A DNA stretch of 64,000 nucleotides from Candidatus Campbellbacteria bacterium RIFOXYC2_FULL_35_25 (GCA_001774495.1 MFAE01000006.1:5356-69355); one strand, 5' to 3'; positions 5,318 to 63,156 are shown, counted from the stretch's first letter. Notes: a model not told the origin generated them from the letters alone. Translations and numbers: made by a program.

Positions 5318-6655
5318 TTATTCTTCTTCCAAAATTGCTTCTTCAACCCCTTTAATTACTAAATAAAAATCTGCCACGTTTGACCCGGTTCTTTCTGTTT
5401 TTATATGTCCGCCAGACTGTTTAAAAAAATTATAGGCGTCATTGTTATCTAAAAAAAGCAAAGTGTCTAAGCCAATGTCTAGTGACTTATCGTATAAGCC
5501 CATATCCGCAATAGCCCCTGCCACATCACTATTATCCCAACCATCAGAAGCACAAGCAGCAACGACTGTATTATAAGGAATATGAGGCAGTGCTCCCAAA
5601 ACAAACTCTTGGTTCCTCCCCCCTTCTCCCTTTCCCAAAACTTTAACGGTTGTTTCTCCCCCCCAAAGATGACAACTTTTAGGAGAATACCCTACGGAAA
5701 CAAATTTTTGACCTAAGATTCTCGCTTCTCCCTCAAGTTTCGTGTCCTCAATGTATGTGTCATACCCCAATTCTTCAGCTCGCTTCTTCATTTCTTCAAG
5801 AGCTACTTGATTTGACCCTAAAAGAATATTAGTAATATTCTCAAAATATTTACCTTTTTTGGGAGTTTCAATCAAGTCTATTTTTAAATTATCCATTCCA
5901 TATTTTTTCAAAATATTAAGAGCATCCTTTTCTGTTGTTTTATCCATAACAGTTGGACCAGAAGCAATAACACTTAAATCATCCCCAGGAACATCAGACA
6001 AAAGAAAAGAAACAACAGTTGCTGGATAAACTAATTTTGCAAACTGACCTCCTTTTATCATAGAGGTGTGCTTTCTTACTGTATTTAATTCTGTAATGGT
6101 TGCCCCTTTGTTCATCAGCTGGTCTGAGATTTCTTTTTGCTCTTCCCAAGTCATTTTATAAGGCAAGCACATTAAAGAAGATCCTCCTCCCGAGATTAGT
6201 GTTATAACCAAATCATTTTTATCTGCTTGTTTTAATATATCAACAATTGATTTTGTCACAGCAACATTTATTCCTGACGGAAATGGGTGGGTTCCTTCTT
6301 CTGAAATCATATTTTTAAAATCACCTTTTTTCACATCAAGAACAACGCCACTGGTTATTTTATCCCCTAACAAATCTTCAAAAACAATAGCAGAATCCAC
6401 GGCACATTTTCCAATAGCGATAAAATAAATATTCTTATAATTATCAAGACAAATTTTGTGCTCAGCAAAACAAATACTATTATCTTTAATAGAGATCTTT
6501 GAACGGATAAGTCTATCGGTTAAAATTGACTCATAGCCAACTTCTAAAATACTAAGTGCGTCTTCTCTTAATTGTGAAGTTGCTAAATCATCAACGTTTT
6601 TTATTACCGGGATTTTATTTTCCATATACACTAAGTATAAATTATAAAGTAACAA
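5318..6655 (-). CDS. glycerate 2-kinase, MOFRL family
   Basis: 445 aa. MOFRL-family layout (DUF4147 N-domain, GGGSSLM glycine-rich segment) like Thermotoga-type glycerate 2-kinase. True start is probably the internal MENKIP. Confidence 0.7.
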   Translation of the reverse strand: MLLYNLYLVYMENKIPVIKNVDDLATSQLREDALSILEVGYESILTDRLIRSKISIKDNSICFAEHKICLDNYKNIYFIAIGKCAVDSAIVFEDLLGDKITSGVVLDVKKGDFKNMISEEGTHPFPSGINVAVTKSIVDILKQADKNDLVITLISGGGSSLMCLPYKMTWEEQKEISDQLMNKGATITELNTVRKHTSMIKGGQFAKLVYPATVVSFLLSDVPGDDLSVIASGPTVMDKTTEKDALNILKKYGMDNLKIDLIETPKKGKYFENITNILLGSNQVALEEMKKRAEELGYDTYIEDTKLEGEARILGQKFVSVGYSPKSCHLWGGETTVKVLGKGEGGRNQEFVLGALPHIPYNTVVAACASDGWDNSDVAGAIADMGLYDKSLDIGLDTLLFLDNNDAYNFFKQSGGHIKTERTGSNVADFYLVIKGVEEAILEEE

Positions 6656-6694
6656 GTAGAAAGTAGGTAGCGGATAATTTAAATTATAAAAAAT

Positions 6695-7660: not shown

Positions 7661-7675
7661 AAGGATAAGTATAAA

Positions 7676-7706
7676 CCCCCACACCTTTTTTTAAAAGGTG
7701 TGGGGG
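7676..7706. mobile_element. MITE-like element copy 1 (minimal): 13-14-bp terminal inverted repeats CCCCCACACCTTT/AAAGGTGTGGGGG, 3-5-nt centre, flanked by 4-bp direct repeat TAAA
   Basis: Read directly: taaa-CCCCCACACCTTTT-ttt-AAAAGGTGTGGGGG-taaa. The same inverted repeats and 4-bp duplications occur at 55585-55709 and 62294-62383. Confidence 0.6.
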
Positions 7707-7730
7707 TAAAGTAGCTAGTATCGAGAAACA

Positions 7731-7761
7731 AAAAACTGCCCCGCATGACAATGCGGGGCAG
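7731..7761 (-). terminator. intrinsic terminator hairpin (ctgccccgcat-gaca-atgcggggcag) followed by a T-run on the minus strand
   Basis: Perfect 11-bp GC-rich stem directly 3' of minus-strand gene 7780..8349, with an A/T-run on both sides. Confidence 0.7.
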
Positions 7762-7779
7762 TACATACAAGGGTGCTTG

Positions 7780-8349
7780 CTAAACCTCAGTAGCAATGAT
7801 ATTAGCCGCTTCTTCATCTGGTTTACCAAAAATCTCATCCATGGATTCGATTTCGGTATCTAATTGTTGCAGGATTCTTTCCATACAAGAACAAATTCCT
7901 GGCAAATCATCAATACCTTTCTTCTGGGCTCTGGAAAGACCCCCAATCAAGTTTTTTAAGAAACCCTCTATCTCCACTAAAAGACGAAACCTGAGGGAAC
8001 CATTCCCTGCGACCACGCCAGGTTTTTCATCCCGTAGTAAAGAGATAACCTTGATCACTTTGCCGAGAACCGCTGTTTCTTCGACATGATTAATGGGAAG
8101 ATAAGCACCTACTGTGGCCTTCCCCACCTCTCGGTTAAGAGGGCCTCCTCCCTCTGCATCAAGAATCTTAATAATTTTATTCCACAAACGAGCAACGGAG
8201 ATGTTGAGATTAATCAGGGTGTTCTTGAGATTCGCTTTCCTCGCTCGCAAGACATACTTCCTGAAAATACAGCAGACCGCGAAAAGAACAAGCGGCAAAA
8301 CAACAACGAAAAACCAAAAAACCCCTGGTAACGCCTTGACTGTAACCAT
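7780..8349 (-). CDS. hypothetical protein with N-terminal TM anchor (GC-enriched gene)
   Basis: 189 aa. AAAGGAGG ribosome-binding site 9 nt before the ATG, own terminator, N-terminal hydrophobic helix. No family recognised. Confidence 0.55.
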   Translation of the reverse strand: MVTVKALPGVFWFFVVVLPLVLFAVCCIFRKYVLRARKANLKNTLINLNISVARLWNKIIKILDAEGGGPLNREVGKATVGAYLPINHVEETAVLGKVIKVISLLRDEKPGVVAGNGSLRFRLLVEIEGFLKNLIGGLSRAQKKGIDDLPGICSCMERILQQLDTEIESMDEIFGKPDEEAANIIATEV

Positions 8350-8508: not shown

Positions 8509-10149
8509 CTACCAACTAACAAAAAGTCGAGCTAATCTTATCTCTTCATAACTAAAACCATCCCCCAAAATACTTTTAACTGGAGTGAGTTTCGTGTCGC
8601 CAGATTTTTTAAATGCTTTTTTAATTTTTTTTAATTTATCACTTGGAAAATCTTTCTCCAAATAGTTTAAATCTAACTTTTCATTCCCCTCAAGTAATTT
8701 TTCCAAATGGTTGATAATTGTGTTTTCAGTTAAATCTCTTTCTTTCGCAATATCCTCAATTGAAAGTTTTTTCTCAACTAGTAGTTGCGTTTCATCATAA
8801 GTTGAAAGGGTTATTTCTTTCCCTTTTTTTGCACTTCCTCCCACTGATTCCAAAAATTCTTTTTGCTTTTGTTTTTTTGTTTTCTCCACCATCTTTTGTA
8901 ATTTATCAACCGATTTTTTTGATAACTCCATCAATTCAGTATCCAAATTTAAAACATCTTTGTTTACCTGCAGAGCTATTGTATTCAAGCCCATCAAACG
9001 TAACCCATCAATTGATTTAACTCTTGAAAGAGCCACATACCCCATCCCCTCAACAAAAGACTTTGAAAGATCAATCTCTGCTGCATCCAAACTCATTCCC
9101 TGACTTTTATGCACAGTAATAGCCCACGCCAAACGCAACGGAATTTGTTTTAGCTCTGCTTTTATCTTCCCTTCGTCATCAATAATCCAACTTTCTCGGT
9201 CAACTTCAATTTTTCTTCCATCGTATGTTTTAACAATTGGTAACCCTCTTTCACTAAAATCAGCAACCGTACCCAAAGTTCCATTTACATATTTCTTAAT
9301 CGGGTTATTTTTTATAAACATAACCGCAGCCCCTTTTTTTAGTCTCAATTCCTCCTGAGCAAAACAGCTTTTTTTTAAAGTTTCTACTAATGCTTTTTTG
9401 CCCTTGGTTTCCATTTCAAAAATTCTTGCAGGACCATCTATTCCCTCCAATTCACCTTCATTTATTTTATCAATATCTATATTATGAGTATAAAGCTTGG
9501 TTGGAGTAATGTGACTTTTCAGTTCTTTTCTGTACCTAGTTCTTAGCGGAACCAAAACATTCTCTCCTGCATTATTTTGTCTGATACTATTTAAAATATC
9601 AACCAAAGTGTCACATTTATGCCTAAACTGTTCTTCCAGATAACAAACCTCTAGATTCATGTTTTGCCACACTCCTGATTTATTTATAAAACTAGACTCG
9701 CCTCCGCCTCTAGTAATAGGAGGTAACTGGAAGAAATCGCCCGACAGAATTACCTGCATTCCCCCAAAGGGTAACTCATTTTGTTTGAATCCTCGGCAAA
9801 CTCTATCAATCAAATCAAGACGATAGTGGTGAAGCATTGAAACTTCATCAATAATTAATACTTTGGTATTCTCAAATCTTTTTGCTAAATACTGTTTTTG
9901 CAAAAGTGAATCCATTTCCCATTCATCCAAATCGTCTTTTATTCCGATTCCTGCCCAAGAGTGAATGGTCACGCCGTTCATATGAGTAGCGGCAATCCCA
10001 GTTGAGGCAGTTACCCCGATTCCAACCCCATTTTCTTTTAAAAAATCGATATAAGTATTTAAGAGATGGGTTTTTCCACTTCCGGCTGGCCCTGTTAAAT
10101 AAACATTGCGCCCCATTTTTAAAATTTCCAAAGCCTCAGATTGTTTCAT
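8509..10149 (-). CDS. PIF1/RecD-like ATP-dependent DNA helicase (AAA_30 / UvrD_C_2 type)
   Basis: 546 aa. Walker A GPAGSGKTHLL, Walker B LIIDEVSM, C-terminal RecD/Pif1-like SH3 and 2B domains. Confidence 0.75.
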   Translation of the reverse strand: MKQSEALEILKMGRNVYLTGPAGSGKTHLLNTYIDFLKENGVGIGVTASTGIAATHMNGVTIHSWAGIGIKDDLDEWEMDSLLQKQYLAKRFENTKVLIIDEVSMLHHYRLDLIDRVCRGFKQNELPFGGMQVILSGDFFQLPPITRGGGESSFINKSGVWQNMNLEVCYLEEQFRHKCDTLVDILNSIRQNNAGENVLVPLRTRYRKELKSHITPTKLYTHNIDIDKINEGELEGIDGPARIFEMETKGKKALVETLKKSCFAQEELRLKKGAAVMFIKNNPIKKYVNGTLGTVADFSERGLPIVKTYDGRKIEVDRESWIIDDEGKIKAELKQIPLRLAWAITVHKSQGMSLDAAEIDLSKSFVEGMGYVALSRVKSIDGLRLMGLNTIALQVNKDVLNLDTELMELSKKSVDKLQKMVEKTKKQKQKEFLESVGGSAKKGKEITLSTYDETQLLVEKKLSIEDIAKERDLTENTIINHLEKLLEGNEKLDLNYLEKDFPSDKLKKIKKAFKKSGDTKLTPVKSILGDGFSYEEIRLARLFVSW

Positions 10150-10280
10150 TACATAAGAATAACGAATTATGAATCACGAATCAAGGAAACAAAAAGATTC
10201 TGTACCTTTATAATTTCTATGTTTTGACAAGTAACAAGAAACCCCAGGCAACCAAATGCCTGGGGGTGTCAAAATAGAAG

Positions 10281-10685: not shown

Positions 10686-10708
10686 TTTCTTGATTAGTTG
10701 AATAAGTT

Positions 10709-10815
10709 AAAATTTTGATACAGTTCGAGGAAGTGAAAAAAAATTATTTGAGGCGTATTTATAATACGGTGAAAATAATTTTTTTAAAACTGACGAAGAA
10801 CTGTGCAAAATTTGG
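10709..10815 (-). ncRNA. R1: candidate structured RNA (novel family, paralog of R2 and R3) starting 2 nt after the cupin stop codon
   Basis: Three nested helices: outer aaattttg/caaaattt, second acagttc/gaactgt, central hairpin cgtat-tataa-atacg. Conserved cores CGTATT.TAATACGCCTC and GCTTCCTCGAACTGTATC are shared with R2 and R3, with compensatory substitutions. Confidence 0.6.
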
Positions 10816-10817
10816 AC

Positions 10818-11216
10818 TTATTCTGTAGTTGTTCCATCAAAATGTTCATCATCAGCCTCAGCCTCTTCTTTTGTTGTATGGATAACTCCGTTTCTGTGAT
10901 GAGCTGGGGAATAGATAGTGTAAAGTTTCATATCTTCAGTTTCAGAAGTATTGATAACATTATGGTCTGTCCCGGCTGGAATTAGGATAGCAAAACCATC
11001 TTCAACAGCAGTTTCAACTCCATCTAAAATTACTTTTCCTTCCCCTGAATCTACTCTGAAAAATTGGTCAGTATCTTCATGAACCTCCATCCCAATTTCT
11101 TCCATTGGTTTCAGACTCATAAGAACTAGTTGGCTGTACTTCCCGGTGTAAAGAACTTCTCTAAAATTTGAGTTCTCTTTAGTTAACTTCTCTATGTTTT
11201 TTATAAATCCATGCAT
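10818..11216 (-). CDS. cupin-domain protein
   Basis: 132 aa, single cupin_2-like beta-barrel (G.DHNVINTSE...LYTIYSPAHH). Confidence 0.6.
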   Translation of the reverse strand: MHGFIKNIEKLTKENSNFREVLYTGKYSQLVLMSLKPMEEIGMEVHEDTDQFFRVDSGEGKVILDGVETAVEDGFAILIPAGTDHNVINTSETEDMKLYTIYSPAHHRNGVIHTTKEEAEADDEHFDGTTTE

Positions 11217-11570: not shown

Positions 11571-11598
11571 ACTACATATGTTATTGTTTCTAAATAAT

Positions 11599-11707
11599 TT
11601 CAAATTTAGATACAGTTCGAGGAAGCAAGGGAAAATTTTTCGAGCCTTATTTCCTATAAGGTGAGAATAATTTTTCTGAAGATGACAAAGAAACTCGCCA
11701 ATTTTGA
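11599..11707 (-). ncRNA. R2: candidate structured RNA (paralog of R1/R3) starting 10 nt after the secA stop codon
   Basis: Same architecture as R1. The central hairpin ccttat-aggaa-ataagg has a G-C to U-A compensatory change relative to R1, and the 3' core CTTCCTCGAACTGTATC is shared. Confidence 0.6.
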
Positions 11708-11716
11708 AGTTATTTA

Positions 11717-14248
11717 TTATTTTCCACAGCACTTTTTGTATTTTTTGCCACTACCACAAGAACACAAATCATTCCTCCCCAGTTTCTCTCCCTGATTTAC
11801 AATTGGTTTTTGAACCTGCCCTTCTCCTTCTGACCCTGCTTTTTCGGTAATACTCTTTGCTTGTTCATGGATGGCTTGTAGTTGTTGCTGTTCTCTAACA
11901 AAAGCTCCAGCTCCCATACTTGGAATAAAGTGTAAAATCTTTTCATTGATTACCCACTGCATTTCCTTAAACATATTCAATCCTTCTCTTTTATATTCAA
12001 CAAGAGGGTCTCTTTGCCCATAGGCACGTAAATTAACTGATGAACGCAAATAATCCATTACTTCTAAGTGTTCTACCCAAAGCATATCAATAGTTTGCAA
12101 CATCAGTCTTCTCATAACATCAAAAAATTCGATGTCACCCAACAAACCCCTTTTTTCTTTAATAATTAACCCCAGACTTTCCCGAGTACCAAAAAGTTCC
12201 ACAGCTTCTTCGGATGAAGTGCTGTAAACTTCTTCAATAATTCCTTCCAAAATATCTTCTATTTCTTTATCTGTGCCAAACAAAATTTTTCTTCTTCTTT
12301 CGTAAACAATTTTTCTTTGGTAATTTAAAATATCATCATATTGCAAAACATGTTTTCTGGAATCAAAATTAAACCCTTCAATTTTTTCTTGGGCTGATTC
12401 AAGGGAGCGGGTTATCATTTTATTCTGGATAGCCTCATCTTCAGGGATTCCCAATTTGCCCATAAGATTTTTAACCATATCAGAAGCAAACACTCTCATA
12501 AGAGTATCTTCTAGGGAAACAAAAAATTGTGTTTCTCCTGGGTCTCCCTGCCTTCCAGAACGACCTCTCAACTGATTATCTATTCTTCGAGATTCATGTC
12601 TTTCTGTCCCCATAACAAACAATCCGCCCAAACTCTTAACTTCTTTATATTTTTCTGGGGTCATTGGAATACCGCCAAGTTTAATATCAACTCCTCGTCC
12701 GGCCATGTTTGTAGCAACGGTTACTCTACCTTTTTCCCCCGCTTGAGCAATAATTTCACCTTCATTTTCGTGATTTTTTGCATTTAATAATTCGTGTTTT
12801 ATTCCCTCCGCTTTTAAATACTGTGAGAGTAATTCATTTTTATCAATAGAAACTGTTCCAATCAAAACTGGCTGACCTGTTTTATTTAATTCTTTTACTT
12901 TTTTTGCTAGGGCTTTAAATTTTCCTGTCTCTGTTTGAAAAATTAAATCGTCCTGATCTTTTCTTTGAATATCTTGGTGGGTAGGAATAACCACTGTCTC
13001 CAAACCATAAACTTTGTAAAACTCTTCTGAAGAAGAGTGCGCTGTTCCTGTCATTCCTGACAATTTTTTGTAAAGACGAAAATAATTTTGGAAAGTAATA
13101 GAAGCATAAGTTCGTGATTCTTTCTGAACTTTTAATCCCTCTTTAGCTTCTATCGCTTGGTGTAAACCTTCTGACCACCTTCTCCCTGGTTGTAAACGAC
13201 CAGTAAATTCATCAACAATAATTATTTCTCCTTCTTTAACAACATACTCCTTGTTTGCATTAAAAAGCGCCTTGGCTCTAACCGCTGTTTCAAGATGGTG
13301 AACAAATTTGATTCCCTTTTCAGTATAAATATTTTCTATGCCTAATATTTTTTCTGCCTTTTCTACCCCAGCGTCTGTCAGTGTCACTGCTTTAAATTTT
13401 TCTTCTACCTCAAAATCTGTATCCCTAATCATTTTAGTCGCAATTTTCGCAAACTGTGCATACAAATCTTCTGAATCTGTAGTGGGTGTTGAAATGATCA
13501 AAGGGGTTCTCGCTTCATCAATAAGAATAGAGTCTATCTCATCTACAATAGCAAAGTTGTATTCTCTCTGACGAATTTGTTCTTTTCTGTATTCAATATT
13601 ATCTCTCAAATAATCGAAACCAAACTCGTTGTTTGTTCCATAAGTTATATCAGCTCCATAAGCCTCCTTTCTTGTGCAAGGGCGAAGAAACTCATCAACA
13701 ATTTTATAAGAACCTTCTTCATCTCTTTCTTTATCTAGTTCTGTGTGAGTTGAGTCATAAAGATATGATTGTTCACTGTTTATAATTCCGATACTCAAAC
13801 CAAGAGCTGAATAAACTTGTCCCATCCAAACAGCATCTCTTCGTGAAAGATAATCGTTAACAGTAACGACGTGCACTCCTTTTCCTTCTAAAGCATTCAA
13901 ATAAACGGGCAATGTCGCAACCAAAGTTTTTCCTTCTCCTGTTCTCATTTCGGCAATTTTTCCTTGATGTAAAATAATTCCCCCAAAAAGTTGAACATCG
14001 TAGTGTCTTTCTCCTAAATTTCGTTTAGATGTTTCTCTTACAAGAGCAAAAGCTTCTGGCAACAACTCATCTAGGGTCTCCCCCTCTTTCAACCTGTCTC
14101 TATATTCTTTTGTTTTATTTTTTAAAGCTTCTTCAGATAAATTCAAAAAACTATCCTCCCAAGAATTAATTTTTTCCACTAAAGGCTGAAGATCTTTCTG
14201 AGCCTTTTTATTTTCATCCCCACTTAATATTTTCTTTAAAAAATTCAT
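11717..14248 (-). CDS. secA: preprotein translocase ATPase SecA
   Basis: 843 aa. DEAD-like motor motifs (GEGKTLVATLPVYLNAL), preprotein cross-linking domain, C-terminal zinc-binding CSCGSGKKYKKCCGK. Confidence 0.93.
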   Translation of the reverse strand: MNFLKKILSGDENKKAQKDLQPLVEKINSWEDSFLNLSEEALKNKTKEYRDRLKEGETLDELLPEAFALVRETSKRNLGERHYDVQLFGGIILHQGKIAEMRTGEGKTLVATLPVYLNALEGKGVHVVTVNDYLSRRDAVWMGQVYSALGLSIGIINSEQSYLYDSTHTELDKERDEEGSYKIVDEFLRPCTRKEAYGADITYGTNNEFGFDYLRDNIEYRKEQIRQREYNFAIVDEIDSILIDEARTPLIISTPTTDSEDLYAQFAKIATKMIRDTDFEVEEKFKAVTLTDAGVEKAEKILGIENIYTEKGIKFVHHLETAVRAKALFNANKEYVVKEGEIIIVDEFTGRLQPGRRWSEGLHQAIEAKEGLKVQKESRTYASITFQNYFRLYKKLSGMTGTAHSSSEEFYKVYGLETVVIPTHQDIQRKDQDDLIFQTETGKFKALAKKVKELNKTGQPVLIGTVSIDKNELLSQYLKAEGIKHELLNAKNHENEGEIIAQAGEKGRVTVATNMAGRGVDIKLGGIPMTPEKYKEVKSLGGLFVMGTERHESRRIDNQLRGRSGRQGDPGETQFFVSLEDTLMRVFASDMVKNLMGKLGIPEDEAIQNKMITRSLESAQEKIEGFNFDSRKHVLQYDDILNYQRKIVYERRRKILFGTDKEIEDILEGIIEEVYSTSSEEAVELFGTRESLGLIIKEKRGLLGDIEFFDVMRRLMLQTIDMLWVEHLEVMDYLRSSVNLRAYGQRDPLVEYKREGLNMFKEMQWVINEKILHFIPSMGAGAFVREQQQLQAIHEQAKSITEKAGSEGEGQVQKPIVNQGEKLGRNDLCSCGSGKKYKKCCGK

Positions 14249-14627: not shown

Positions 14628-15402
14628 TGCTATGTGCTAAGCTAAGCTTAGCACATTTTATTTTATTCAAAATCAATTACCAAATCTCTTTCTTCTTCAT
14701 CTTCTCCAAAGTCTTTAGTTCCACTTTTGTTATTAAATTCCTTATATTCTTGGTTATTATCAAACTGACCTTTAATAATTTCATAACTTAATAAATTCCC
14801 CCAACGACTCTCGCCAACATAATCCTGAAAACTTGACCATGGGTATTTTTCTTCTTTATTCTTCCATTCTTTTATACCTCTAGGATTTCTATGAATATAA
14901 GCAGATAGATAAAGTAATTGTTCGTTAGATTCAATATGAACTACCTTAAAGGTTCCTTGAAATAAATGCCCTGTTTTTGCATATTTTTTATTATGATATT
15001 TGGTAAAGGATGTACCGATTCGGTGCATATACTGAGAGATTCCACCCTCTTTTGTCTCCCTAAGAGTTAAATGAAAATGATTAGGCATTAAGCAAAAATT
15101 GATCAATTCAACATATCTGTTTTTTATAACTAAATCTAGCTGATCTTTTTTAAAATAAAAAAAATTTCTTTTTACAAAAAAACTAACTGAACGAGAAATA
15201 TTTAAAAAACTAAAGGTAGACTGAAAATAAATAATTAAAAATAAAAAACGAACATAATCACGAATGTCTAAAAAAATATTTTGTTTATTATTCCCCCTAT
15301 TATAAACGTGGTAATATTCACCCACAGAAATTTCTACTTTTCTCATAAGTATTATAATACACAAAAACCTTAAAATGTGCAAAGCTAAGCTTAGCACATT
15401 TT
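14628..15402 (-). mobile_element. IS200/IS605-family (RAYT-like) element: Y1 HUH transposase gene flanked by identical subterminal hairpins
   Basis: Left hairpin atgtgctaagc-taa-gcttagcacat at 14636-14660 and right hairpin aatgtgcaaagc-taa-gcttagcacatt at 15374-15400, in the same orientation either side of the tnpA ORF. No TnpB gene. Confidence 0.65.
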
Positions 15403-43067: not shown

Positions 43068-46000
43068 CTACTGGTTGTAAACATCACAAAAGACTTTCCT
43101 GGTCATAGGGCCAAAGACTCCGTAACCGGTAGTTGCTTCTGTTCCTGAACAAACAACATCATATTTACACTGGTATCTTTGAACAGCTTTGATAGTTAAA
43201 TTTCCGTAATAGCCCGAGTTTATCCCTTTGGGATAAATCTTCTTGTCTAGGGATAAAATTTCTTGTAACTTTTTGACTTGTTCATTTTCCATACCGTAGG
43301 AGAGGGTGGCATTAAAGTATTGTGAGCAAGTCAAACCATCAATTAGTTTTGTTCCTACTGGGTTAACGATTGGGGTTTGGTCTGTTGTGGAAGTAGCAAT
43401 ACTAAAACTAATATTAGCGTCTGTAGTATTAGTATTCCCGACTGTATCTCTGCACTTAATGTAATAATTATGATTACCGTTACTTAATCTACTAATTATA
43501 GCACTGTGAGTATCCCCACTGGCTGTCATTGTTCCTGTCATTGAATCGTAGGCAGTGTTAGCTACTGTGCTGTATTTACAAATGGCTGTTTCATTCGTTG
43601 TGACAGAAAGAATGGTTGAGGTTGTGCCTGCTGGTAATATGCCCGTTGGAATTAAAGAAGAAATAACAGGGGGAACGGTGTCAGTGATCCCTCCACCAAC
43701 AGTAGCTGTGTTTGAATAGGCGCCTAGATTACCCGCCATATCAAAAGCTTTCACAGAATAGGTGTAGTTTGTGTTGGGTATCAGAGCCGTGTCTGAATAA
43801 AAATTAGTTATGGTTGTTGTAAGGGAATTTGTTGGTGTACAAGAAGTCCCGGCACACCTGTATATGTGGTAACCAGCTACCCCTAGATCGTCAGTTGCTG
43901 AAACCCAAGTTAAATTGATTTGGGAAGAAGAAATTGAAGTTGCTTGTAATCTAGCAGGAGCCGATGGAGCGATGGTATCAACCCAAGCGGAATCGTACTC
44001 ATCATTATCTTCTGCAGAAGCACATCCAGGATCAATAGGATAATCTATTTTTCCATCAGAATCATTATCTATTCCATCGTTACATTGATAAATCCCACTT
44101 AGGGCGCAAGTCTGAGTTCCTGTTGTTATTGGTTTAGTTGCTGTGGTACCACAACTGTTAGCATCTGTGCAAGTTCTTGTCTGAGTTTGTGAGTTGTTGG
44201 AACAAACCCCCCAAGCACTCCAAGAGGAGCATGTCCAAGCTTCGATACAAACAGGGGGAGTATAAATACAAGATTGAGTCAAGACTGGTGAGCCTCCAAC
44301 ACACCCTGTTGGAGTTGAAGATATAATTGTTCTTGATTGTGTTCCATTAGATTGGCAAGTTCCGAAAGTAGAATAGGTGAAGTTAGTGCAGGTGACAGGT
44401 GAAGTAATTGTATATTTTTCCAACCAATTTTCTGCTGACCAACCGTCAGGAGCACTGTCGTAATTCACTTGCCACCACCAGTAACCATCACTAGATACAG
44501 GACCTCCAATAATTGTCCCTAACAAACCAACGGCTTGGGTACCTAAATAAGTTCCCGAAGGTGTAGCGCGGACGTTGAGAGTAGTGGTTGTTTTGGCACG
44601 ATCGTTAATAGCTAGTTTTGTGGAAGCTACCAAAGTAGCTGTGCAAGCTTGTGTTTGAGTAACGGACGGTTTGTTCGTAGTAGTGCCACAACTATTGACA
44701 TCGGTGCAAGCCCTGGTTTGGGTTCGGGAACTATTGTTGCAAGCGGACCAAGCACTCCAAACAGAACACGACCATGATTCGGTGCAAGTAGCAGATGAAG
44801 TGGTTAGGTATTTTTCTAAATATTGTTCCACTGACCAACCGTCAGGAGCATTGTCGTAATTCACTTGCCACCACCAGTAACCATCACTAGATACAGGACC
44901 TCCAATAATTGTCCCAAAAGCCCCTAGAACTTGAGAACCCAAGAGTGTTCCTGTTATTGAAGGAGTGGCACGGACATTAAGAGTGGTTGTTGTTTTAACG
45001 TTGTCATTGATAGCTAGTTTGGTGGAAACTGTTGGGGTAATTGTACAAGACTGAGTGGTCACTGGTGAGCCACCGGTACAACCTGTCGGGGAGGAAGTAA
45101 TAACGGTTCTTGTTTGAGTATTGTTGGATTGACAGGTATTCCAGCTTGAATAGGTGAAAGAGGTGCAGGTGGTAGGAGTTGGGGTTGGATTGATAGCAGA
45201 ACTAGATGGCATCCCGTCCCGTACTTCCCAATCATCAACTTGTCTAGAAAATGTACCTGTCTCTTCTGCATCAATAGATGGGGCAGCCACATAATAAACA
45301 TTATTAGGTGTCCAAACTCCGTCTGCATAATCGGCATCCAACTTTAAAGTACCATCGTACCAGAATTTACTAATCCCTGTAGAAAATTTAATATAGAATT
45401 CGTAATGATGCCATTTTCCGTCAGTCATATTAGGAGTGCCAATGTATTTACTCAACTCTATCATTGTCCCATTGCCTTTGGCAGAGTAATATATTGTACC
45501 ATCATTCATCATTGTGTAGTGAACATAACTTTGAACACCATTCCAATGAGGATAAAATAATTTGAAATTTTCAAAAGTATCGGTGCTTGTGAAATTTGGA
45601 TACCGCATCCAAAAAGACACGTGCATCTCATCTGATGGCCAAGGAGATGGGATATTATTCTTCCAAACAAGATGGGCCGAATTCACATTTCCAGAACTAA
45701 ATGAATATCCAGTTCCATTCCGGCCTACAGCATTAAGATTATAGTCTGGAGGAGAAAGCACAGACCAGTTTGGTCCATACACAATTAATCTACTGTCAAC
45801 CTCTTGGTCATCAAAATTTTCCTGAAAAAGAAGAGAGGAGCCAGAAACAGTAGCAGAAGTACAAGCTTGCGATCCAGTTGTGGTTGGTTTACTTGTGGTT
45901 GTACCACAACTATTGACATCGGTGCAAGCCCTGGTTTGGGTTTGGGAACTATTGTTGCAAGCGGACCAAGCACTCCAAACAGAACACGACCATGATTCGG

Positions 46001-47225
46001 TGCAAGTAGCAGATGAAGTGGTTAGGTATTTTTCTAAATATTGTTCCACTGACCAACCGTCAGGAGCATTGTCGTAATTCACTTGCCACCACCAGTAACC
46101 ATCACTAGATACAGGACCTCCAATAATTGTCCCAAAAGCCCCTAGAACTTGAGAACCCAAGAGTGTTCCTGTTATTGAAGGAGTGGCACGGACATTAAGA
46201 GTGGTGGTTGTTTTGACACGATCGTTAATAGCTAGTTTTGTGGAAACTGTCTGGGAAGTGGTGCAAGATTGGGTTTGGGTGGTGATTGGTTTACTGGTGG
46301 TGGTGCCACAAGAGTTGGCATCGGTGCAGGTTTTGGTTTGAGATTGGGAGTTATTGGTGCAAGTGGACCAAGCGCTCCAAGAGGTGCACGACCATGATTC
46401 GGTGCAGATGGTAGATGGAGGGGTAGTTGATATGGATGATGACATAAACGCAAATGGAGGAAGTCCATCCCAAACCTCATAATCATCAATCGCCCATCCT
46501 CCATGACCATCCGCAGAGTCACATGTCGCTTTCAAAGCAGGAGACCTGTCAAGTCCCGCGCCATTATAATGCCCGGTTATTATATTGTTCCTATCAGAAA
46601 CTATTTCATTATTAATAGCCATCACGAAATGACCATCGGGATTGCTATGGCTTGTTCCGGATGAAAGTTTCATATAAATCTCGACCTTCATCCAATCGCC
46701 ACGAGTATAACTGGCTCCAAACCAATCACTGCCTATTGGTGTCCCAGATCCTCCCTGCCACACCAACCCCACTCCCGTATCTGAAAAAGAGGTGAATGCT
46801 ATCTCCGTGTGTCCTAAACTTCCACCATCAAACCAAAGTTGTTTGGTGTTATAGTATGTATTTCCTACACAATTGGAATAATTTGCATCAAACTTCACCC
46901 AATATTTTATATATAACTCATCCGTTGCAGGAAAGGGCGATGAAGGAAATGCAATATTAAGATCACCACCACTATCATCTAAATTATGCGTGCTCCATGC
47001 TGCAAGGCCCGTATGCCCCGGCACATAAGTTACTATATGGTCAGGATTGCTCGGATGATTATACCAATATTCATACGCGTGGATATAGCCCAACGAATCA
47101 GTAAGGTTGTTTTCAAAATCCACTTTGCTGATTTGATTGGCGGCCTGGCTAACTTCTGTCTTGAATAGAAAAATTCCAACAATGAAAATAATAACTAAAG
47201 AATACCTGGTTATTTTTTTTGTCAT
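43068..47225 (-). CDS. giant secreted multidomain surface protein: ConA-like jelly-roll x2, thrombospondin-type-1-like Cys repeats x4-6, SH3b x3, FN3, C-terminal peptidoglycan-binding domain
   Basis: Signal peptide. Repeats CTESWSC.VWSAWSACNNSSQTQTRACTD.NSCG (WSxWS...RxRxC, TSP1-like), SH3b units (LNVRATPSITGTLLG...WWWQVNYD), FN3 (PSAPARLQATSISSSQINLTW), and a PG_binding_1-like segment (LSYGMENEQVKKLQEIL). Confidence 0.6.
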   Translation of the reverse strand: MTKKITRYSLVIIFIVGIFLFKTEVSQAANQISKVDFENNLTDSLGYIHAYEYWYNHPSNPDHIVTYVPGHTGLAAWSTHNLDDSGGDLNIAFPSSPFPATDELYIKYWVKFDANYSNCVGNTYYNTKQLWFDGGSLGHTEIAFTSFSDTGVGLVWQGGSGTPIGSDWFGASYTRGDWMKVEIYMKLSSGTSHSNPDGHFVMAINNEIVSDRNNIITGHYNGAGLDRSPALKATCDSADGHGGWAIDDYEVWDGLPPFAFMSSSISTTPPSTICTESWSCTSWSAWSTCTNNSQSQTKTCTDANSCGTTTSKPITTQTQSCTTSQTVSTKLAINDRVKTTTTLNVRATPSITGTLLGSQVLGAFGTIIGGPVSSDGYWWWQVNYDNAPDGWSVEQYLEKYLTTSSATCTESWSCSVWSAWSACNNSSQTQTRACTDVNSCGTTTSKPTTTGSQACTSATVSGSSLLFQENFDDQEVDSRLIVYGPNWSVLSPPDYNLNAVGRNGTGYSFSSGNVNSAHLVWKNNIPSPWPSDEMHVSFWMRYPNFTSTDTFENFKLFYPHWNGVQSYVHYTMMNDGTIYYSAKGNGTMIELSKYIGTPNMTDGKWHHYEFYIKFSTGISKFWYDGTLKLDADYADGVWTPNNVYYVAAPSIDAEETGTFSRQVDDWEVRDGMPSSSAINPTPTPTTCTSFTYSSWNTCQSNNTQTRTVITSSPTGCTGGSPVTTQSCTITPTVSTKLAINDNVKTTTTLNVRATPSITGTLLGSQVLGAFGTIIGGPVSSDGYWWWQVNYDNAPDGWSVEQYLEKYLTTSSATCTESWSCSVWSAWSACNNSSRTQTRACTDVNSCGTTTNKPSVTQTQACTATLVASTKLAINDRAKTTTTLNVRATPSGTYLGTQAVGLLGTIIGGPVSSDGYWWWQVNYDSAPDGWSAENWLEKYTITSPVTCTNFTYSTFGTCQSNGTQSRTIISSTPTGCVGGSPVLTQSCIYTPPVCIEAWTCSSWSAWGVCSNNSQTQTRTCTDANSCGTTATKPITTGTQTCALSGIYQCNDGIDNDSDGKIDYPIDPGCASAEDNDEYDSAWVDTIAPSAPARLQATSISSSQINLTWVSATDDLGVAGYHIYRCAGTSCTPTNSLTTTITNFYSDTALIPNTNYTYSVKAFDMAGNLGAYSNTATVGGGITDTVPPVISSLIPTGILPAGTTSTILSVTTNETAICKYSTVANTAYDSMTGTMTASGDTHSAIISRLSNGNHNYYIKCRDTVGNTNTTDANISFSIATSTTDQTPIVNPVGTKLIDGLTCSQYFNATLSYGMENEQVKKLQEILSLDKKIYPKGINSGYYGNLTIKAVQRYQCKYDVVCSGTEATTGYGVFGPMTRKVFCDVYNQ
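44440..46270. repeat. intragenic tandem duplication: about 1.2-kb period, about 315 bp near-identical (44687-45000 vs 45893-46206), plus a diverged third copy
   Basis: ORF-track frames 44671..44859 and 45880..46077 translate to identical 62-aa peptides 1209 nt apart. Direct reading shows only a few mismatches across about 315 bp. Confidence 0.8.
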
Positions 47226-51505: not shown

Positions 51506-51541
51506 AATAACAGTATAAATGAGCGAGTATTAAGTAGCAAG
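51506..51541 (-). promoter_or_regulatory. paralogous promoter, empty site: CTTGCTA-17 nt-TATACT-6 nt-ATG, no MITE insertion
   Basis: Minus strand reads ccTTGCTActtaatactcgctcatt-TATACT-gttatt-ATG. The same promoter, with a MITE inserted at TTTA|TACT, occurs before the 6695..7660 and recO genes. Confidence 0.5.
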
Positions 51542-54956: not shown

Positions 54957-55577
54957 CTACAAATGCATTTCTTCAAAAATCTCTCCTATCATCTTTTGGG
55001 CTTCTTTTTTTACAGTCTCCATTTTTAAAATTAATTTATTACTTAATTCCCTTGAACTCAAAAAATCAGAAAAAAGTTCTTTACTCACATTTTTGTCAAA
55101 GTATCCTAAATTATTTAATATTTTAATATTCGTTATTAACCCTAGGTTCTCTAATTCTTTTTTACTCAAATCTCGTTCTTTCAAAAAATTTACGGTATCT
55201 GAAACAATATCAAAAAGTTCCTCATTTTTTTCTTCACCGTGGATAAGCTTTCTGAGCAAAGAAAATATACTCAAAATAAAATCAAATCTTTTATTTTCCC
55301 TTATCCCTTGCCCAGAGAATATAAAAAACAAATTTTCTATTGGGGAGACATTTGTTATTCTCCAAATGTCTTTTCCTCTGACCAAAGAAATATCAGAAAT
55401 AGAAAAATCCTGTAAACCATAGCGATTTTTCGAACTTATTTTTCGAACACCCTGGGCCGTTGCGTTAATAAGACCGAGCTCTCTTGTGAAAAGATAGAAA
55501 AACTTATTCGATTCGCCAGTGTCAAAACTATTTAAAACAATACCTTGGGTGGTGTAGATGTTATGCATAATATCCAA
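54957..55577 (-). CDS. recO: DNA repair protein RecO (short)
   Basis: N-terminal OB-fold region TQGIVLNSFDTGESNKFFYLFTRELGLINATAQGVRK matches the RecO N-domain. ATG 55568 is the likely start; the ORF track uses TTG 55577. Confidence 0.6.
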   Translation of the reverse strand: MDIMHNIYTTQGIVLNSFDTGESNKFFYLFTRELGLINATAQGVRKISSKNRYGLQDFSISDISLVRGKDIWRITNVSPIENLFFIFSGQGIRENKRFDFILSIFSLLRKLIHGEEKNEELFDIVSDTVNFLKERDLSKKELENLGLITNIKILNNLGYFDKNVSKELFSDFLSSRELSNKLILKMETVKKEAQKMIGEIFEEMHL

Positions 55578-55584
55578 GTATAAA

Positions 55585-55709
55585 CCCCCACACCTTTCAT
55601 TGCAAAAACATGCATATGTTTTATTTTAGACATTTTTATAATGAAAGATATGGGCTGATAAACCCCCGCTCACTTTGTGAGCTCACACCTTTGAATAAAG
55701 GTGTGGGGG
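55585..55709. mobile_element. MITE-like element copy 2 (125 bp): TIRs CCCCCACACCTTT / AAAGGTGTGGGGG, flanking 4-bp direct repeat TAAA, inserted between the -35 spacer and -10 box of the recO promoter
   Basis: Read directly. The interior carries degenerate extra copies of the arm (aaacccccgctcac, gagctcacaccttt) and small hairpins. Confidence 0.6.
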
Positions 55710-55743
55710 TAAAGTAGCGAGTATCAAGTAACAAGATAAAATT

Positions 55744-60120: not shown

Positions 60121-60259
60121 ATTTTAAACTCTTTATATTGATAATTTTTCTAAAAACTTTAGCCAAAGGCTAATCAGCCTCCGGCTGAAAAAACTACCAA
60201 CTAAAAACTTAGTTTTAATATTACATCAAACACCCAGCTTGAGCAATTTAAAAAGATAT

Positions 60260-62261: not shown

Positions 62262-62292
62262 ATTATACTACCTAAATAAACTTTTACGTCAA
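62262..62292 (-). promoter_or_regulatory. sigma70-like promoter TTGACG-19 nt-TATAAT driving the leader + tRNA-Gln transcript
   Basis: Minus strand reads cTTGACGtaaaagtttatttaggtagTATAATgatg. The -35 box abuts the CAAG duplication of MITE copy 3. Confidence 0.5.
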
Positions 62293-62293
62293 G

Positions 62294-62383
62294 CTCCCAC
62301 ACCTTTCATAATATTATTAAATAATTTTACAAAAGAGATTTACCTATTTTTTCCAAAGAACGATATTATGAAAGGTGTGGGGG
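62294..62383. mobile_element. MITE-like element copy 3 (90 bp): TIRs CTCCCACACCTTT / AAAGGTGTGGGGG, AT-rich 51-nt core, 4-bp direct repeat CAAG
   Basis: Read directly: caag-CTCCCACACCTTT-...-AAAGGTGTGGGGG-caag. Confidence 0.6.
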
Positions 62384-62397
62384 CAAGCAAAAATAAA

Positions 62398-63092: not shown

Positions 63093-63156
63093 TTTACTAA
63101 CAATTTTATATTACATCAAAAAATTGACTTGGGCAATTCAATAAAACATGGATTAT

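What the first reader, a model, noticed from the sequence alone, without database searches (positions are those of the whole stretch)
7661..7735. Two MITE copies sit at the identical position (TTTA|TACT, between spacer and -10 box) of paralogous promoters; a third paralogous promoter at 51506-51541 is an empty site
Minus-strand upstream regions, each ending 6-8 nt before the ATG:
- CaCA gene: ttgtttctcgatactagctacTTTA-[MITE]-TTTATACTtatcctt-ATG
- recO: cttgttacttgatactcgctacTTTA-[MITE]-TTTATACTtggatatt-ATG
- AI-2E transporter: cttgctacttaatactcgctcaTTTATACTgttatt-ATG, with no insertion, giving TTGCTA-17-TATACT.

Either the element has strong target preference for this promoter motif, or a promoter-plus-element cassette has been copied in front of unrelated genes. 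Both insertions separate the -35 and -10 elements by more than 40 nt, so they must change expression unless the element supplies its own -35. In copy 2, TTGCAA lies 17 nt upstream of TATACT inside the element's right end.
Basis: partly seen in the sequence, partly recalled or inferred. Interest (0 to 1): 0.7.

Follow-up and report, generated by a model that had tools for sequence, protein, structure and literature searches.

The report
Small mobile palindrome inside leaderless promoters
A tiny hairpin-forming mobile DNA element has landed at exactly the same spot, just upstream of the -10 box, in two look-alike promoters of an uncultured groundwater bacterium (Candidatus Campbellbacteria); it brings a replacement -35 box with it, as some known bacterial mini-transposons do, but this family has not been described in this group of bacteria.

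Summary
On the minus strand, the promoters of the CaCA antiporter gene (ATG 7660) and recO (ATG 55568) both read ...GCTAC-TTTA-[CCCCCACACCTTT...AAAGGTGTGGGGG]-TTTA-TACT. The AI-2E transporter promoter (51540..51512) is the uninterrupted form, TTGCTA-17-TATACT.

The inserts are 31 nt and 125 nt. The 125-nt insert is a tandem of two elements, 47 and 74 nt. A third copy of 90 nt, flanked by CTTG/CTTG, lies upstream of tRNA-Gln.

Mobility is supported directly. The closest relative found (RecO 88% identical) has the same recO promoter without the insert and with a single TTTA.

Target preference explains the data better than copying of a cassette:
- The elements differ in length and interior sequence.
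- Double insertions recur at the same TTTA.
- A relative with 60% protein identity has four elements in 14 kb, three of them next to (CT)ACTTTA. One sits in its orthologous CaCA promoter.

Each promoter-embedded copy places a -35-like hexamer 16-17 nt from the intact -10: TTGCAA, TTTAAA, and TTTACA in the relative.

The "paralogous promoters" belong to a lineage-wide family of promoters built from 7-nt repeats that sit directly before the start codon. No matching transposase was found. Verdict: a new MITE-like family of a known kind, of moderate interest.

The parts
7676..7706 (-). Element copy 1. A 31-nt perfect palindrome, CCCCCACACCTTTT-AAA-AAAAGGTGTGGGGG, with 14-bp arms. Its loop and left arm give TTTAAA 16 nt upstream of the -10 box.
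   Evidence: Folded as DNA, dG is -15.7 kcal/mol with z = -5.3. The consensus scan marks it as promoter-like (TTTAAA-16-TATACT) and also as terminator-like.
7707..7710 (-). Left TTTA copy of the target-site duplication at the CaCA promoter.
   Evidence: The empty paralogue and the empty recO orthologue each have a single TTTA.
7668..7675 (-). Right TTTA copy (7675..7672), overlapping the -10 box TATACT (7673..7668). The ATG of the CaCA gene follows at 7660, 7 nt after the box.
7711..7731 (-). Displaced upstream half of the 7-nt-repeat promoter, TTGTTTC TCGATAC TAGCTAC. It carries the original -35 TTGTTT, now 52 nt from the -10.
55663..55709 (-). Element copy 2a. A 47-nt palindrome with a nested 16-nt palindrome (AGCTCACAAAGTGAGC) inserted in its right arm.
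55659..55662 (-). Internal TTTA between the two tandem elements.
   Evidence: L206 has the same layout at 6138-6141.
55585..55658 (-). Element copy 2b, 74 nt. The left end is degenerate (AGCCCATATCTTT) and the right end is perfect (AAAGGTGTGGGGG). It contains TTGCAA (55605..55600) 17 nt upstream of the -10.
55710..55734 (-). Upstream half of the recO promoter, TTGTTAC TTGATAC TCGCTAC, plus the left TTTA (55713..55710).
   Evidence: It is conserved next to an empty site in L203.
55577..55584 (-). Right TTTA (55584..55581), overlapping the -10 box TATACT (55582..55577). The ATG of recO is at 55568.
51512..51540 (-). Uninterrupted promoter of the same family before the AI-2E transporter gene: TTGCTA-17-TATACT, with a single TTTA at 51519..51516 and the ATG at 51505.
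   Evidence: The promoter is conserved in front of AI-2E orthologues in L204 and L205.
62294..62383 (-). Element copy 3, 90 nt: CCCCCACACCTTTCA...TGAAAGGTGTGGGAG. It lies between a terminator and the -35 (cTTGACG) of the tRNA-Gln promoter and is flanked by CTTG (62387..62384) and CTTG (62293..62290).
   Evidence: It is homologous to the 89-nt elements in L206.

Best explanation
The insert is a member of a small, non-coding, mobile palindromic element family (MITE-like). Its ends are 13-14-nt inverted repeats, CCCCCACACCTTT(T), and it makes a 4-bp target duplication, usually TTTA.

The host is Candidatus Campbellbacteria (Patescibacteria/CPR). In it the element prefers the TTTA that overlaps the start of the -10 box in promoters reading ...CTAC-TTTA-TACT. 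These promoters are built from four 7-nt units (TTGNTAC x4, giving TTGNTA-17-TATACT) and sit 6-8 nt before the ATG, so the mRNAs are probably leaderless.

The duplication regenerates the -10 box. The insertion pushes the old -35 box 35 or 129 nt away. The element's right arm (13-14 nt) plus TT then becomes a new 16-17-nt spacer, and the hexamer just inside it (loop or interior) serves as a new -35. The result would be a hybrid promoter that keeps the gene expressed.

Shown:
- the anatomy and the duplication
- an empty orthologous site
- recurrence at the same motif in two genomes
- consensus -35/-10 geometry

Inferred:
- the transposition chemistry, probably a DDE-type enzyme because the flanking repeat varies with the site
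- the use of the hybrid promoter
- leaderless transcription
For: **Structure.** The ends are perfect inverted repeats and the elements fold as strong hairpins.

**Flanking direct repeats.**
- Window: TTTA/TTTA twice and CTTG/CTTG once.
- L204: TTTA/TTTA.
- L206: TTTA/TTTA, TTTA/TCTA and TTTA/TTAA.

**Empty orthologous site.** L203 reads aattttatcTTGTTACTTAATACCTACTACTTTATACTagatgttATG. The window has the same flank plus 125 nt plus a second TTTA. The element is also absent at recO in L204, L205, L210 and L211.

**Independent insertions rather than a copied cassette.**
- The elements are 31 nt versus 47+74 nt, with unrelated interiors.
- L206 carries an 89+73-nt tandem and a 32-nt hairpin at the same motif, before its two CaCA genes.
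- The 89-90-nt form is conserved at its ends and diverged inside between genomes.

**Site preference.** Random TTTA choice among 174 intergenic sites has probability of about 2-3e-4.

**Replacement -35 boxes.**

**Intact promoter form.**

**Other checks.**
- No Rfam family matches the region.
- The same ends occur in other CPR lineages: Nomurabacteria L025, Uhrbacteria L030 and Doudnabacteria L110.
Against: - No transposase gene with these ends was found in the 75 kb of this genome that was examined, nor in the related loci.
- A 31-nt element whose two ends are 3-5 nt apart is awkward for a classical two-end synaptic complex. The short forms may be deletion products, or may move by another chemistry.
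- The orthologous CaCA promoter in L206 is also filled, and the whole 82-nt upstream region is 90% identical although the proteins are 60% identical. This could mean an old, selected feature rather than a second insertion.
- All 19 public contigs from this population are identical here, so there is no within-population polymorphism.
- The empty site rests on one 943-nt, low-coverage contig that begins with adapter sequence.
- No transcription data exist.
Confidence: 0.65

Rival explanations
1. A promoter-plus-hairpin cassette, not the hairpin alone, has been copied or gene-converted in front of unrelated genes. On this view the shared position reflects common descent of the cassette rather than independent insertion.
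For: - A 38-nt stretch spanning flank and element end is 92% identical between the two sites (D18).
- The window and L206 CaCA upstream regions are 90% identical over 82 nt, more than the coding regions.
- Near-identical promoter modules precede non-orthologous genes in several relatives. recO carries three different promoter families in different genomes, so promoter modules do turn over.
Against: - The two inserts differ in length and interior sequence.
- L203 has the same recO promoter without the element and with one TTTA.
- The promoter family is common without the element: AI-2E in three genomes, plus leaderless RuvC-, Pth- and RuvA-like genes in metagenomes.
- The element occurs without the promoter: copy 3, L204, L206 element d, L025 and L110.
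Confidence: 0.12
2. The palindrome is a resident regulatory site kept by selection, not a recent transposon insertion. It could be an operator, an insulating terminator, or a supercoiling-sensitive cruciform between the -35 and -10 boxes.
For: - The CaCA promoter is filled in two genomes whose proteins are only 60% identical. The arms differ by a compensated change, C>A on one arm and G>T on the other, so pairing stays perfect.
- Copy 1 passes a simple terminator scan.
- The loop supplies a -35-like hexamer at the right distance.
Against: - The recO site is empty in the 88% relative, and the CaCA site is empty in L207.
- The flanking duplications vary with the site.
- The same palindrome lies inside an ORF (L025), in a 23S rRNA helix loop (L030), and upstream of a tRNA promoter. 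These contexts do not fit one operator function.
- A paired change in both arms is also what a transposon subfamily would show; L204 has the same CCCACACACC variant.
Confidence: 0.1
3. The hairpins are moved as single-stranded DNA by a tyrosine (HUH/Y1) transposase of the IS200/RAYT type, like REP sequences or IS200/IS605-derived palindromic elements. They would not be moved by a cut-and-paste DDE transposase.
For: - Two Y1_Tnp genes lie within 75 kb of this small genome.
- Minimal copies are single perfect hairpins of 30-32 nt.
- Most copies lie directly 3' of TTTA.
- The three copies with an asymmetric interior share one orientation relative to the downstream gene.
Against: - Each Y1 gene is flanked by its own, different hairpin: ATGTGCTAAGCTTAGC..GCACAT, and GTTGGGTGTCCGACACCCAAC.
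- Elements with the same end sequences are flanked by different tetranucleotide repeats: CTTG/CTTG for copy 3 versus TTTA/TTTA for L206 element a. This fits a duplication made at the target, not a fixed cleavage site carried by the element.
Confidence: 0.13

Closest known systems
Correia elements (CREE) of Neisseria
   Same: - Small non-coding elements with terminal inverted repeats and a short target duplication.
- Mostly found immediately upstream of genes.
- They carry sigma-70-like promoter elements that drive neighbouring genes (review PMC10969869, read).
   Different: From my own knowledge, Correia elements are about 100-155 bp, have about 26-bp inverted repeats, duplicate TA and carry an IHF site. 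Here the ends are 13-14 nt, the duplication is 4 bp (mostly TTTA), minimal copies are only 31-32 nt, and the host is a CPR bacterium. There is no sequence relationship.
Hybrid promoters made by insertion sequences (outward -35 in the element end plus a resident -10)
   Same: The geometry is the same. The element supplies a -35 hexamer 16-17 nt from a -10 box in the flank.
   Different: Here the insertion splits an existing promoter and replaces its -35. It does not activate a silent gene. The element is also non-autonomous. The comparison rests on my own knowledge of IS1, IS2 and IS10-type examples.
Rickettsia palindromic elements (RPE) and other intragenic MITEs
   Same: Palindromic repeats that tolerate unusual contexts. 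One copy here lies in frame inside an ORF (L025) and one lies in a 23S rRNA helix loop (L030). RPE in-frame insertions are described in PMC10969869.
   Different: RPEs are about 150 bp and encode a conserved peptide. The in-frame case here could not be shown to be an insertion, because the closest homologue (67% identical) has a linker of similar length.
REP sequences with RAYT transposases, and IS200/IS605-derived palindromic elements
   Same: Short GC-rich hairpins dispersed between genes, in a genome that encodes Y1 transposases.
   Different: - Flanking 4-bp duplications are present.
- No conserved GTAG head adjoins the stem.
- The Y1 genes are flanked by other hairpins.

Membership tests
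MITE (non-autonomous DNA transposon of prokaryotes) | Small size and no coding capacity | tested here: met
   Copies are 31, 47, 74 and 90 nt in the window and 30-98 nt elsewhere.
MITE (non-autonomous DNA transposon of prokaryotes) | Terminal inverted repeats | tested here: met
   The ends are CCCCCACACCTTT / AAAGGTGTGGGGG. They are perfect in copies 1 and 2, and copy 3 has one mismatch.
MITE (non-autonomous DNA transposon of prokaryotes) | Target-site duplication, with a single copy at empty sites | tested here: met
   Flanks are TTTA/TTTA twice and CTTG/CTTG once in the window. The empty L203 orthologue and the AI-2E paralogue each have a single TTTA. The duplication is imperfect in some L206 and L025 copies and absent in L030.
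MITE (non-autonomous DNA transposon of prokaryotes) | Several copies at non-homologous loci | tested here: met
   There are 3 loci (4 elements) in 75 kb of this genome and 4 elements in 14 kb of L206. Single copies occur in L204, L025, L030 and L110. Whole-genome copy number is not known.
MITE (non-autonomous DNA transposon of prokaryotes) | Presence/absence difference at an orthologous site in related genomes | tested here: met
   The recO site is filled in the window genome and empty in L203 (88% RecO). It is also empty in L204, L205, L210 and L211.
MITE (non-autonomous DNA transposon of prokaryotes) | A full-length insertion sequence with the same ends and a transposase | tested here: inconclusive
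   No DDE transposase turned up among 47 window ORFs scanned with Pfam. No end pairs more than 400 nt apart were found in any locus. Only about 75 kb of the genome could be read.
Correia element family (Neisseria) | TA duplication, about 26-bp inverted repeats, 100-155 bp, IHF site | tested here: not met
   The duplication, ends, sizes and host all differ. This is a functional analogue only.
REP / RAYT system | Hairpin with a conserved GTAG head, a RAYT gene flanked by its own REPs, and no target duplication | tested here: not met
   The Y1_Tnp genes are flanked by different hairpins. The CTAC next to the TTTA belongs to the promoter, because it is present at empty sites. Flanking duplications are present.
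IS200/IS605-derived palindromic element | Insertion 3' of a fixed tetranucleotide, an element-borne right cleavage site, and no duplication that varies with the site | tested here: not met
   Elements with the same ends are flanked by CTTG/CTTG (window copy 3) or TTTA/TTTA (L206 element a).
Sigma-70-type promoter (the flanking motif) | -35 and -10 hexamers 16-18 nt apart, and a mapped transcription start | tested here: inconclusive
   The consensus geometry is met: TTGCTA-17-TATACT at the empty site, and hybrid versions at the filled sites. Transcription starts cannot be tested with these tools.
Intrinsic terminator | GC-rich hairpin followed by a U-tract at the end of a transcription unit | tested here: inconclusive
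   Copy 1 passes the simple scan. However, its T-run is interrupted (TTATACTTAT), and a better terminator already lies 29 nt upstream at 7762..7735.

The most novel reading that the evidence does not exclude
The element may be a promoter-seeking module spread across CPR bacteria. On this reading it recognises the -10-proximal CTAC-TTTA-TACT junction of a lineage-specific 7-nt-repeat leaderless promoter. It cuts off the ancestral -35 and repeat array, and it installs a hairpin (insulator or terminator, possibly a supercoiling-sensitive cruciform) together with its own -35. It would then be retained by selection, which would explain the perfect, compensated palindrome at the CaCA promoter in genomes only 60% identical at protein level.

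A linked possibility concerns the promoters themselves. Tandem 7-nt repeats may act as self-assembling promoters, because 3 x 7 + 2 = 23 nt equals the -35 to -10 register. That would explain why near-identical promoter modules sit before unrelated genes, and why recO carries three different modules in different genomes.
Probability: 0.15. Interest if true: 0.7.

Novelty: new member of a known kind. Interest (0 to 1): 0.42.

Why it matters
Mobile elements and promoter architecture in Patescibacteria (CPR) are almost unstudied. Full-text searches found no paper on MITEs in this group. The largest MITE census used archaeal genomes from NCBI Assembly and bacterial RefSeq genomes, sought to exclude contaminated MAGs and SAGs, and does not mention Patescibacteria or the Candidate Phyla Radiation (PMC11602168).

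This case gives three things:
- A clean filled/empty pair.
- A precise preferred target, at the upstream edge of the -10 box.
- A simple way for the insertion to be tolerated in a genome with only about 9% intergenic DNA: the element rebuilds the promoter it splits.

It also draws attention to promoters in these organisms that are built from 7-nt repeats and are probably leaderless. That can be tested with existing groundwater metatranscriptomes. The general phenomenon, a MITE that supplies promoter parts, is already well known from Correia and other elements.

Tried and rejected
1. **Genome-contig scan.** The tool requires 14 specified bases, so I padded the 13-nt end with a gap and one base. 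Only L025, L030 and L110 (plus a partial match in L139) were real.
2. **Metagenome scan with the 25-nt promoter pattern.** It returned 63 loci, none from this population and none carrying the element.
   - About a third continue into TA[CAT]T. Several precede leaderless CPR-like genes.
   - Many others are long tandem 7-nt arrays that look unrelated to this lineage (their organisms were not identified) and match only because of the repeat period.
3. **Two viral-contig scans for paired ends.** No hits.
4. **Within-population polymorphism.** All 19 contigs encoding the identical RecO or CaCA protein are identical upstream.
5. **Extending the genome.** This added about 11.5 kb and no further copies. 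One look-up failed because the ORF start I gave was not the called start.
6. **In-frame insertion in L025.** Homologues have a variable linker of similar length, so an insertion is not demonstrated.
7. **Known RNA families.** Rfam finds only tRNA-Gln in the window.
8. **REP/RAYT and IS200/IS605 models.** Rejected on the flanking repeats and on the hairpins that flank the Y1 genes.
9. **Literature.** Searches for CPR MITEs or CPR leaderless promoters found nothing specific.

Full report
**Source and setting.** A RecO protein 100% identical to the window's is named by NCBI as coming from Candidatus Campbellbacteria bacterium RIFOXYC2_FULL_35_25, a CPR/Patescibacteria genome from groundwater. The window has about 34% G+C and nearly all genes are on the minus strand. 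Only about 9% of it is intergenic.

**The observation.** Read on the minus strand:

| Gene | Upstream sequence | Notes |
|---|---|---|
| CaCA | TTGTTTCTCGATACTAGCTAC-TTTA-[CCCCCACACCTTTTAAAAAAAGGTGTGGGGG]-TTTA·TACTtatcctt-ATG | insert 7706..7676, ATG 7660 |
| recO | TTGTTACTTGATACTCGCTAC-TTTA-[125 nt]-TTTA·TACTtggatatt-ATG | insert 55709..55585, ATG 55568 |
| AI-2E | TTGCTACTTAATACTCGCTCA-TTTA·TACTgttatt-ATG | 51540..51512, ATG 51505, no insert |

- The 25-nt promoter pattern has three exact matches and two further matches with 3 mismatches. Allowing up to 3 mismatches, 0.16 matches are expected by chance.
- The repeat finder reports a 38-nt, 92%-identical repeat covering the element end plus flank (D18).
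- The palindrome itself has zero expected matches.
- A third element lies between a terminator and the tRNA-Gln promoter. It is 90 nt long (62383..62294), one end reads GGGAG instead of GGGGG, and it is flanked by CTTG on both sides.

**Anatomy.**
- Copy 1 is a perfect 14-bp-arm hairpin. Folded as DNA, dG is -15.7 kcal/mol and no shuffle folds as well.
- The recO insert is composite.
  - The first part is a 47-nt palindrome with a small nested palindrome in one arm.
  - An internal TTTA follows.
  - The second part is a 74-nt element whose left end is degenerate (AGCCCATATCTTT) and whose right end is perfect.
- The same layout (complete element, TTTA, second element with a degenerate left end, TTTATACT) occurs before a CaCA paralogue in L206. 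Repeated insertion into the TTTA at this motif therefore happened in two genomes.

**Is it mobile?**
- All 19 public contigs that encode the identical RecO or CaCA protein have identical upstream regions, so the population itself is uninformative.
- The closest relative found is decisive. Its RecO is 88% identical (P0002, contig L203). The upstream sequence reads aattttatcTTGTTACTTAATACCTACTACTTTATACTagatgttATG. This is the same flank and the same promoter, with no element and one TTTA.
- Relatives at 54-60% identity also lack the element at recO. The recO insertion is therefore recent in the window lineage, and its boundaries are those of a 4-bp duplication.
- Caveat: L203 is a single 943-nt contig that begins with Illumina adapter sequence.

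**Relatives and the CaCA site.** L206 (GCA_030617535.1) is syntenic with the window around CaCA, and the proteins are 60% identical. It carries four elements in 14 kb:

| Element | Position | Size | Left/right flank | Context |
|---|---|---|---|---|
| a | 6049-6137 | 89 nt | TTTA/TTTA | before the CaCA paralogue; tandem with b |
| b | 6142-6214 | 73 nt | TTTA/TTTA | ends at TTTATACT before the CaCA paralogue |
| c | 8049-8080 | 32 nt | TTTA/TCTA | orthologous CaCA promoter |
| d | 9127-9215 | 89 nt | TTTA/TTAA | before the next gene |

- Element c reads cttgCTACTTTA[CCCACACACCTTTTACAAAAAAGGTGTGTGGG]TCTATACT.
- Its arms differ from the window copy by one change on each arm, and pairing is kept.
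- L207 (57% identical) has no element at CaCA and uses a different promoter family.
The CaCA site may still be either an old, retained insertion or a second hit on a hot spot.
- I favour the hot spot, because recO shows recent activity and because the arm variant CCCACACACC also occurs at another site in L204. This is inference.

**Target preference or cassette copy?** The reconstructed empty targets are:
- CTAC-TTTA-TACT four times (window CaCA, window recO, L206 a/b, L206 c)
- CAAC-TTTA-AAAC
- TTTG-TTTA-TGAA
- TTTG-CTTG-ACGT
- GGG-CTT(G/A)-TCGG

- With 174 intergenic TTTA tetramers in the window, two independent hits on the three homologous promoter positions would have probability of about 2-3e-4 if only TTTA mattered.
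- The inserts differ in length and interior.
- The promoter occurs widely without the element.
- The element occurs without the promoter.

Together this favours target preference for the -10-proximal TTTA. Selection probably adds to it, because so little neutral intergenic DNA is available. A copied promoter-plus-hairpin cassette is less likely.

**Effect on the promoter.**
- The empty site is a textbook TTGCTA-17-TATACT.
- Insertion moves the old -35 box 35 nt (CaCA) or 129 nt (recO) further away. The duplication regenerates TTTATACT.
- The consensus scan finds TTTAAA-16-TATACT across copy 1 and TTGCAA-17-TATACT across the end of copy 2.
- In L206, both promoter-embedded copies give TTTACA-17-TATACT.
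- In each case the new spacer is the element's right arm plus TT.
- Copy 3 sits upstream of an intact -35 and needs no replacement.
- These are consensus matches, not measured promoters.
- Many genes in the window have a -10-like box ending 5-9 nt before the start codon. This suggests leaderless mRNAs, but it is unproven.

**What the "paralogous promoters" are.**
- The motif is four 7-nt units: TTGTTAC TTGATAC TCGCTAC TTTATAC T. Three units plus two bases make 23 nt, the distance from the start of the -35 box to the start of the -10 box.
- The AI-2E promoter keeps this form in relatives with RecO only 58-60% identical to the window's.
- A metagenome scan for the pattern returned 55 distinct sites. 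Nineteen continue into TA[CAT]T, and several lie 6-9 nt before RuvC-, Pth- and RuvA-like genes. Many other hits are long tandem 7-nt arrays that look unrelated to this lineage; their organisms were not identified.
- Two further promoter families precede non-orthologous genes in different genomes:
  - TTTATAGACTTTCAACTTTACAAACTTTATACT
  - TTGATTCGTGATTCATAATTCGTTATTCT
- recO itself carries a different family in different genomes.
- Over 105 upstream regions, lag-7 self-similarity is raised: 0.363 against 0.332 in shuffles, z = 4.4.
- The three promoters are therefore members of a lineage-wide family. Direct copying among them is not shown.

- *Nomurabacteria MAG (L025).* A 32-nt hairpin flanked by CTTG/CTTA lies inside an ORF and in frame. 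Homologues have a variable linker of similar length, so an insertion is not demonstrated.
- *Uhrbacteria MAG (L030).* A 98-nt element lies in the loop of a 23S rRNA helix, between LSU model positions 583 and 584.
- *Doudnabacteria MAG (L110).* A 30-nt hairpin lies between genes.

**Mechanism of movement.**
- No DDE transposase is present among the 47 window ORFs scanned with Pfam.
- Two Y1 (IS200/RAYT-like) transposase genes occur within 75 kb, but each is flanked by its own, different hairpin.
- Elements with identical ends carry different flanking repeats: CTTG in the window and TTTA in L206. This fits a duplication made at the target better than an element-borne cleavage site.
- I therefore favour a cut-and-paste enzyme acting in trans, with a single-strand Y1 mechanism as a live alternative, especially for the 31-nt forms.

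**Comparison with known systems and verdict.**
- The closest functional analogues are Correia elements and other MITEs that carry sigma-70-like promoter parts, and hybrid promoters created by insertion sequences (PMC10969869).
- The element is not a member of those families. Its ends, duplication, size and host all differ.
- No paper on MITEs in CPR bacteria was found. The large MITE census drew on archaeal genomes from NCBI Assembly and bacterial RefSeq genomes, sought to exclude contaminated MAGs and SAGs, and does not mention Patescibacteria or the Candidate Phyla Radiation.
- I rate this as a new member of a known kind, of moderate interest.
- The more unusual side observations are the 7-nt-repeat, probably leaderless promoter families and the possibility that the palindrome has been co-opted.

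Noticed in passing
window 6634-6680, 10156-10186, 51512-51540 (minus strand); L204, L207, L209:16405-16445, L210, L211: Promoters built from tandem 7-nt units. At least three sequence families recur almost unchanged before non-orthologous genes in related genomes. recO carries a different family in different genomes. Lag-7 periodicity over 105 upstream regions gives z = 4.4. Three units plus 2 nt equal the -35 to -10 register.
   Followed up: partly
window-wide, for example ATGs at 7660, 51505, 55568, 56079, 54900, 42953, 10149: Many genes have a -10-like box ending 5-9 nt before the start codon and no Shine-Dalgarno sequence in between. This suggests widespread leaderless mRNAs in this organism.
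   Followed up: partly
window 14632-15399 (gene 15346..14663, minus strand): A Y1_Tnp (IS200/RAYT-like) transposase gene is flanked on both sides by direct copies of a roughly 29-nt hairpin, ATGTGCTAAGCTTAGCTT(T/A)GCACAT. A second, roughly 40%-identical Y1 gene just outside the window (L209:17433-18125) is flanked by a different hairpin, GTTGGGTGTCCGACACCCAAC.
   Followed up: partly
window 10700-10830 and 11590-11730 (minus strand): Two roughly 125-nt segments, 77% identical. One lies downstream of the cupin gene and the other downstream of secA. Each ends in a terminator-like hairpin. There is no significant Rfam match. They may be a duplicated small RNA or another repeat family.
   Followed up: partly
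L030:2612-2709: A 98-nt element with the same 13-nt ends sits in the loop of a 23S rRNA helix (between LSU model positions 583 and 584) in an Uhrbacteria MAG. No flanking duplication is present.
   Followed up: partly
L025:6814-6845: A 32-nt copy of the palindrome lies in frame inside a 434-aa ORF of a Nomurabacteria MAG, encoding ...SPHTFLQKGVGA.... The closest homologue (67% identical) has a linker of similar length, so it is unclear whether this is an insertion.
   Followed up: yes
L204:9470-9990: The 530-nt recO upstream region of this relative is packed with other inverted-repeat elements, for example GTAACCACTCACAC...GTGTGAGTGGTTAC and a long AT-rich palindrome. It also holds a 30-nt relative of the hairpin flanked by TTTA/TTTA.
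   Followed up: no
window 43068-47225 (minus strand): A 1385-aa ORF with internal DNA repeats of about 400 and 1218 nt spacing (repeat finder D1-D5). G+C is locally higher (0.39-0.43) than in the rest of the window.
   Followed up: no
window 60214-60259 and 63104-63149: Another pair of similar promoter-like sequences (TTGCTC/TTGCCC-17-TAATAT on the minus strand, 74% identical over 46 nt) before the threonine dehydratase gene and another gene.
   Followed up: no
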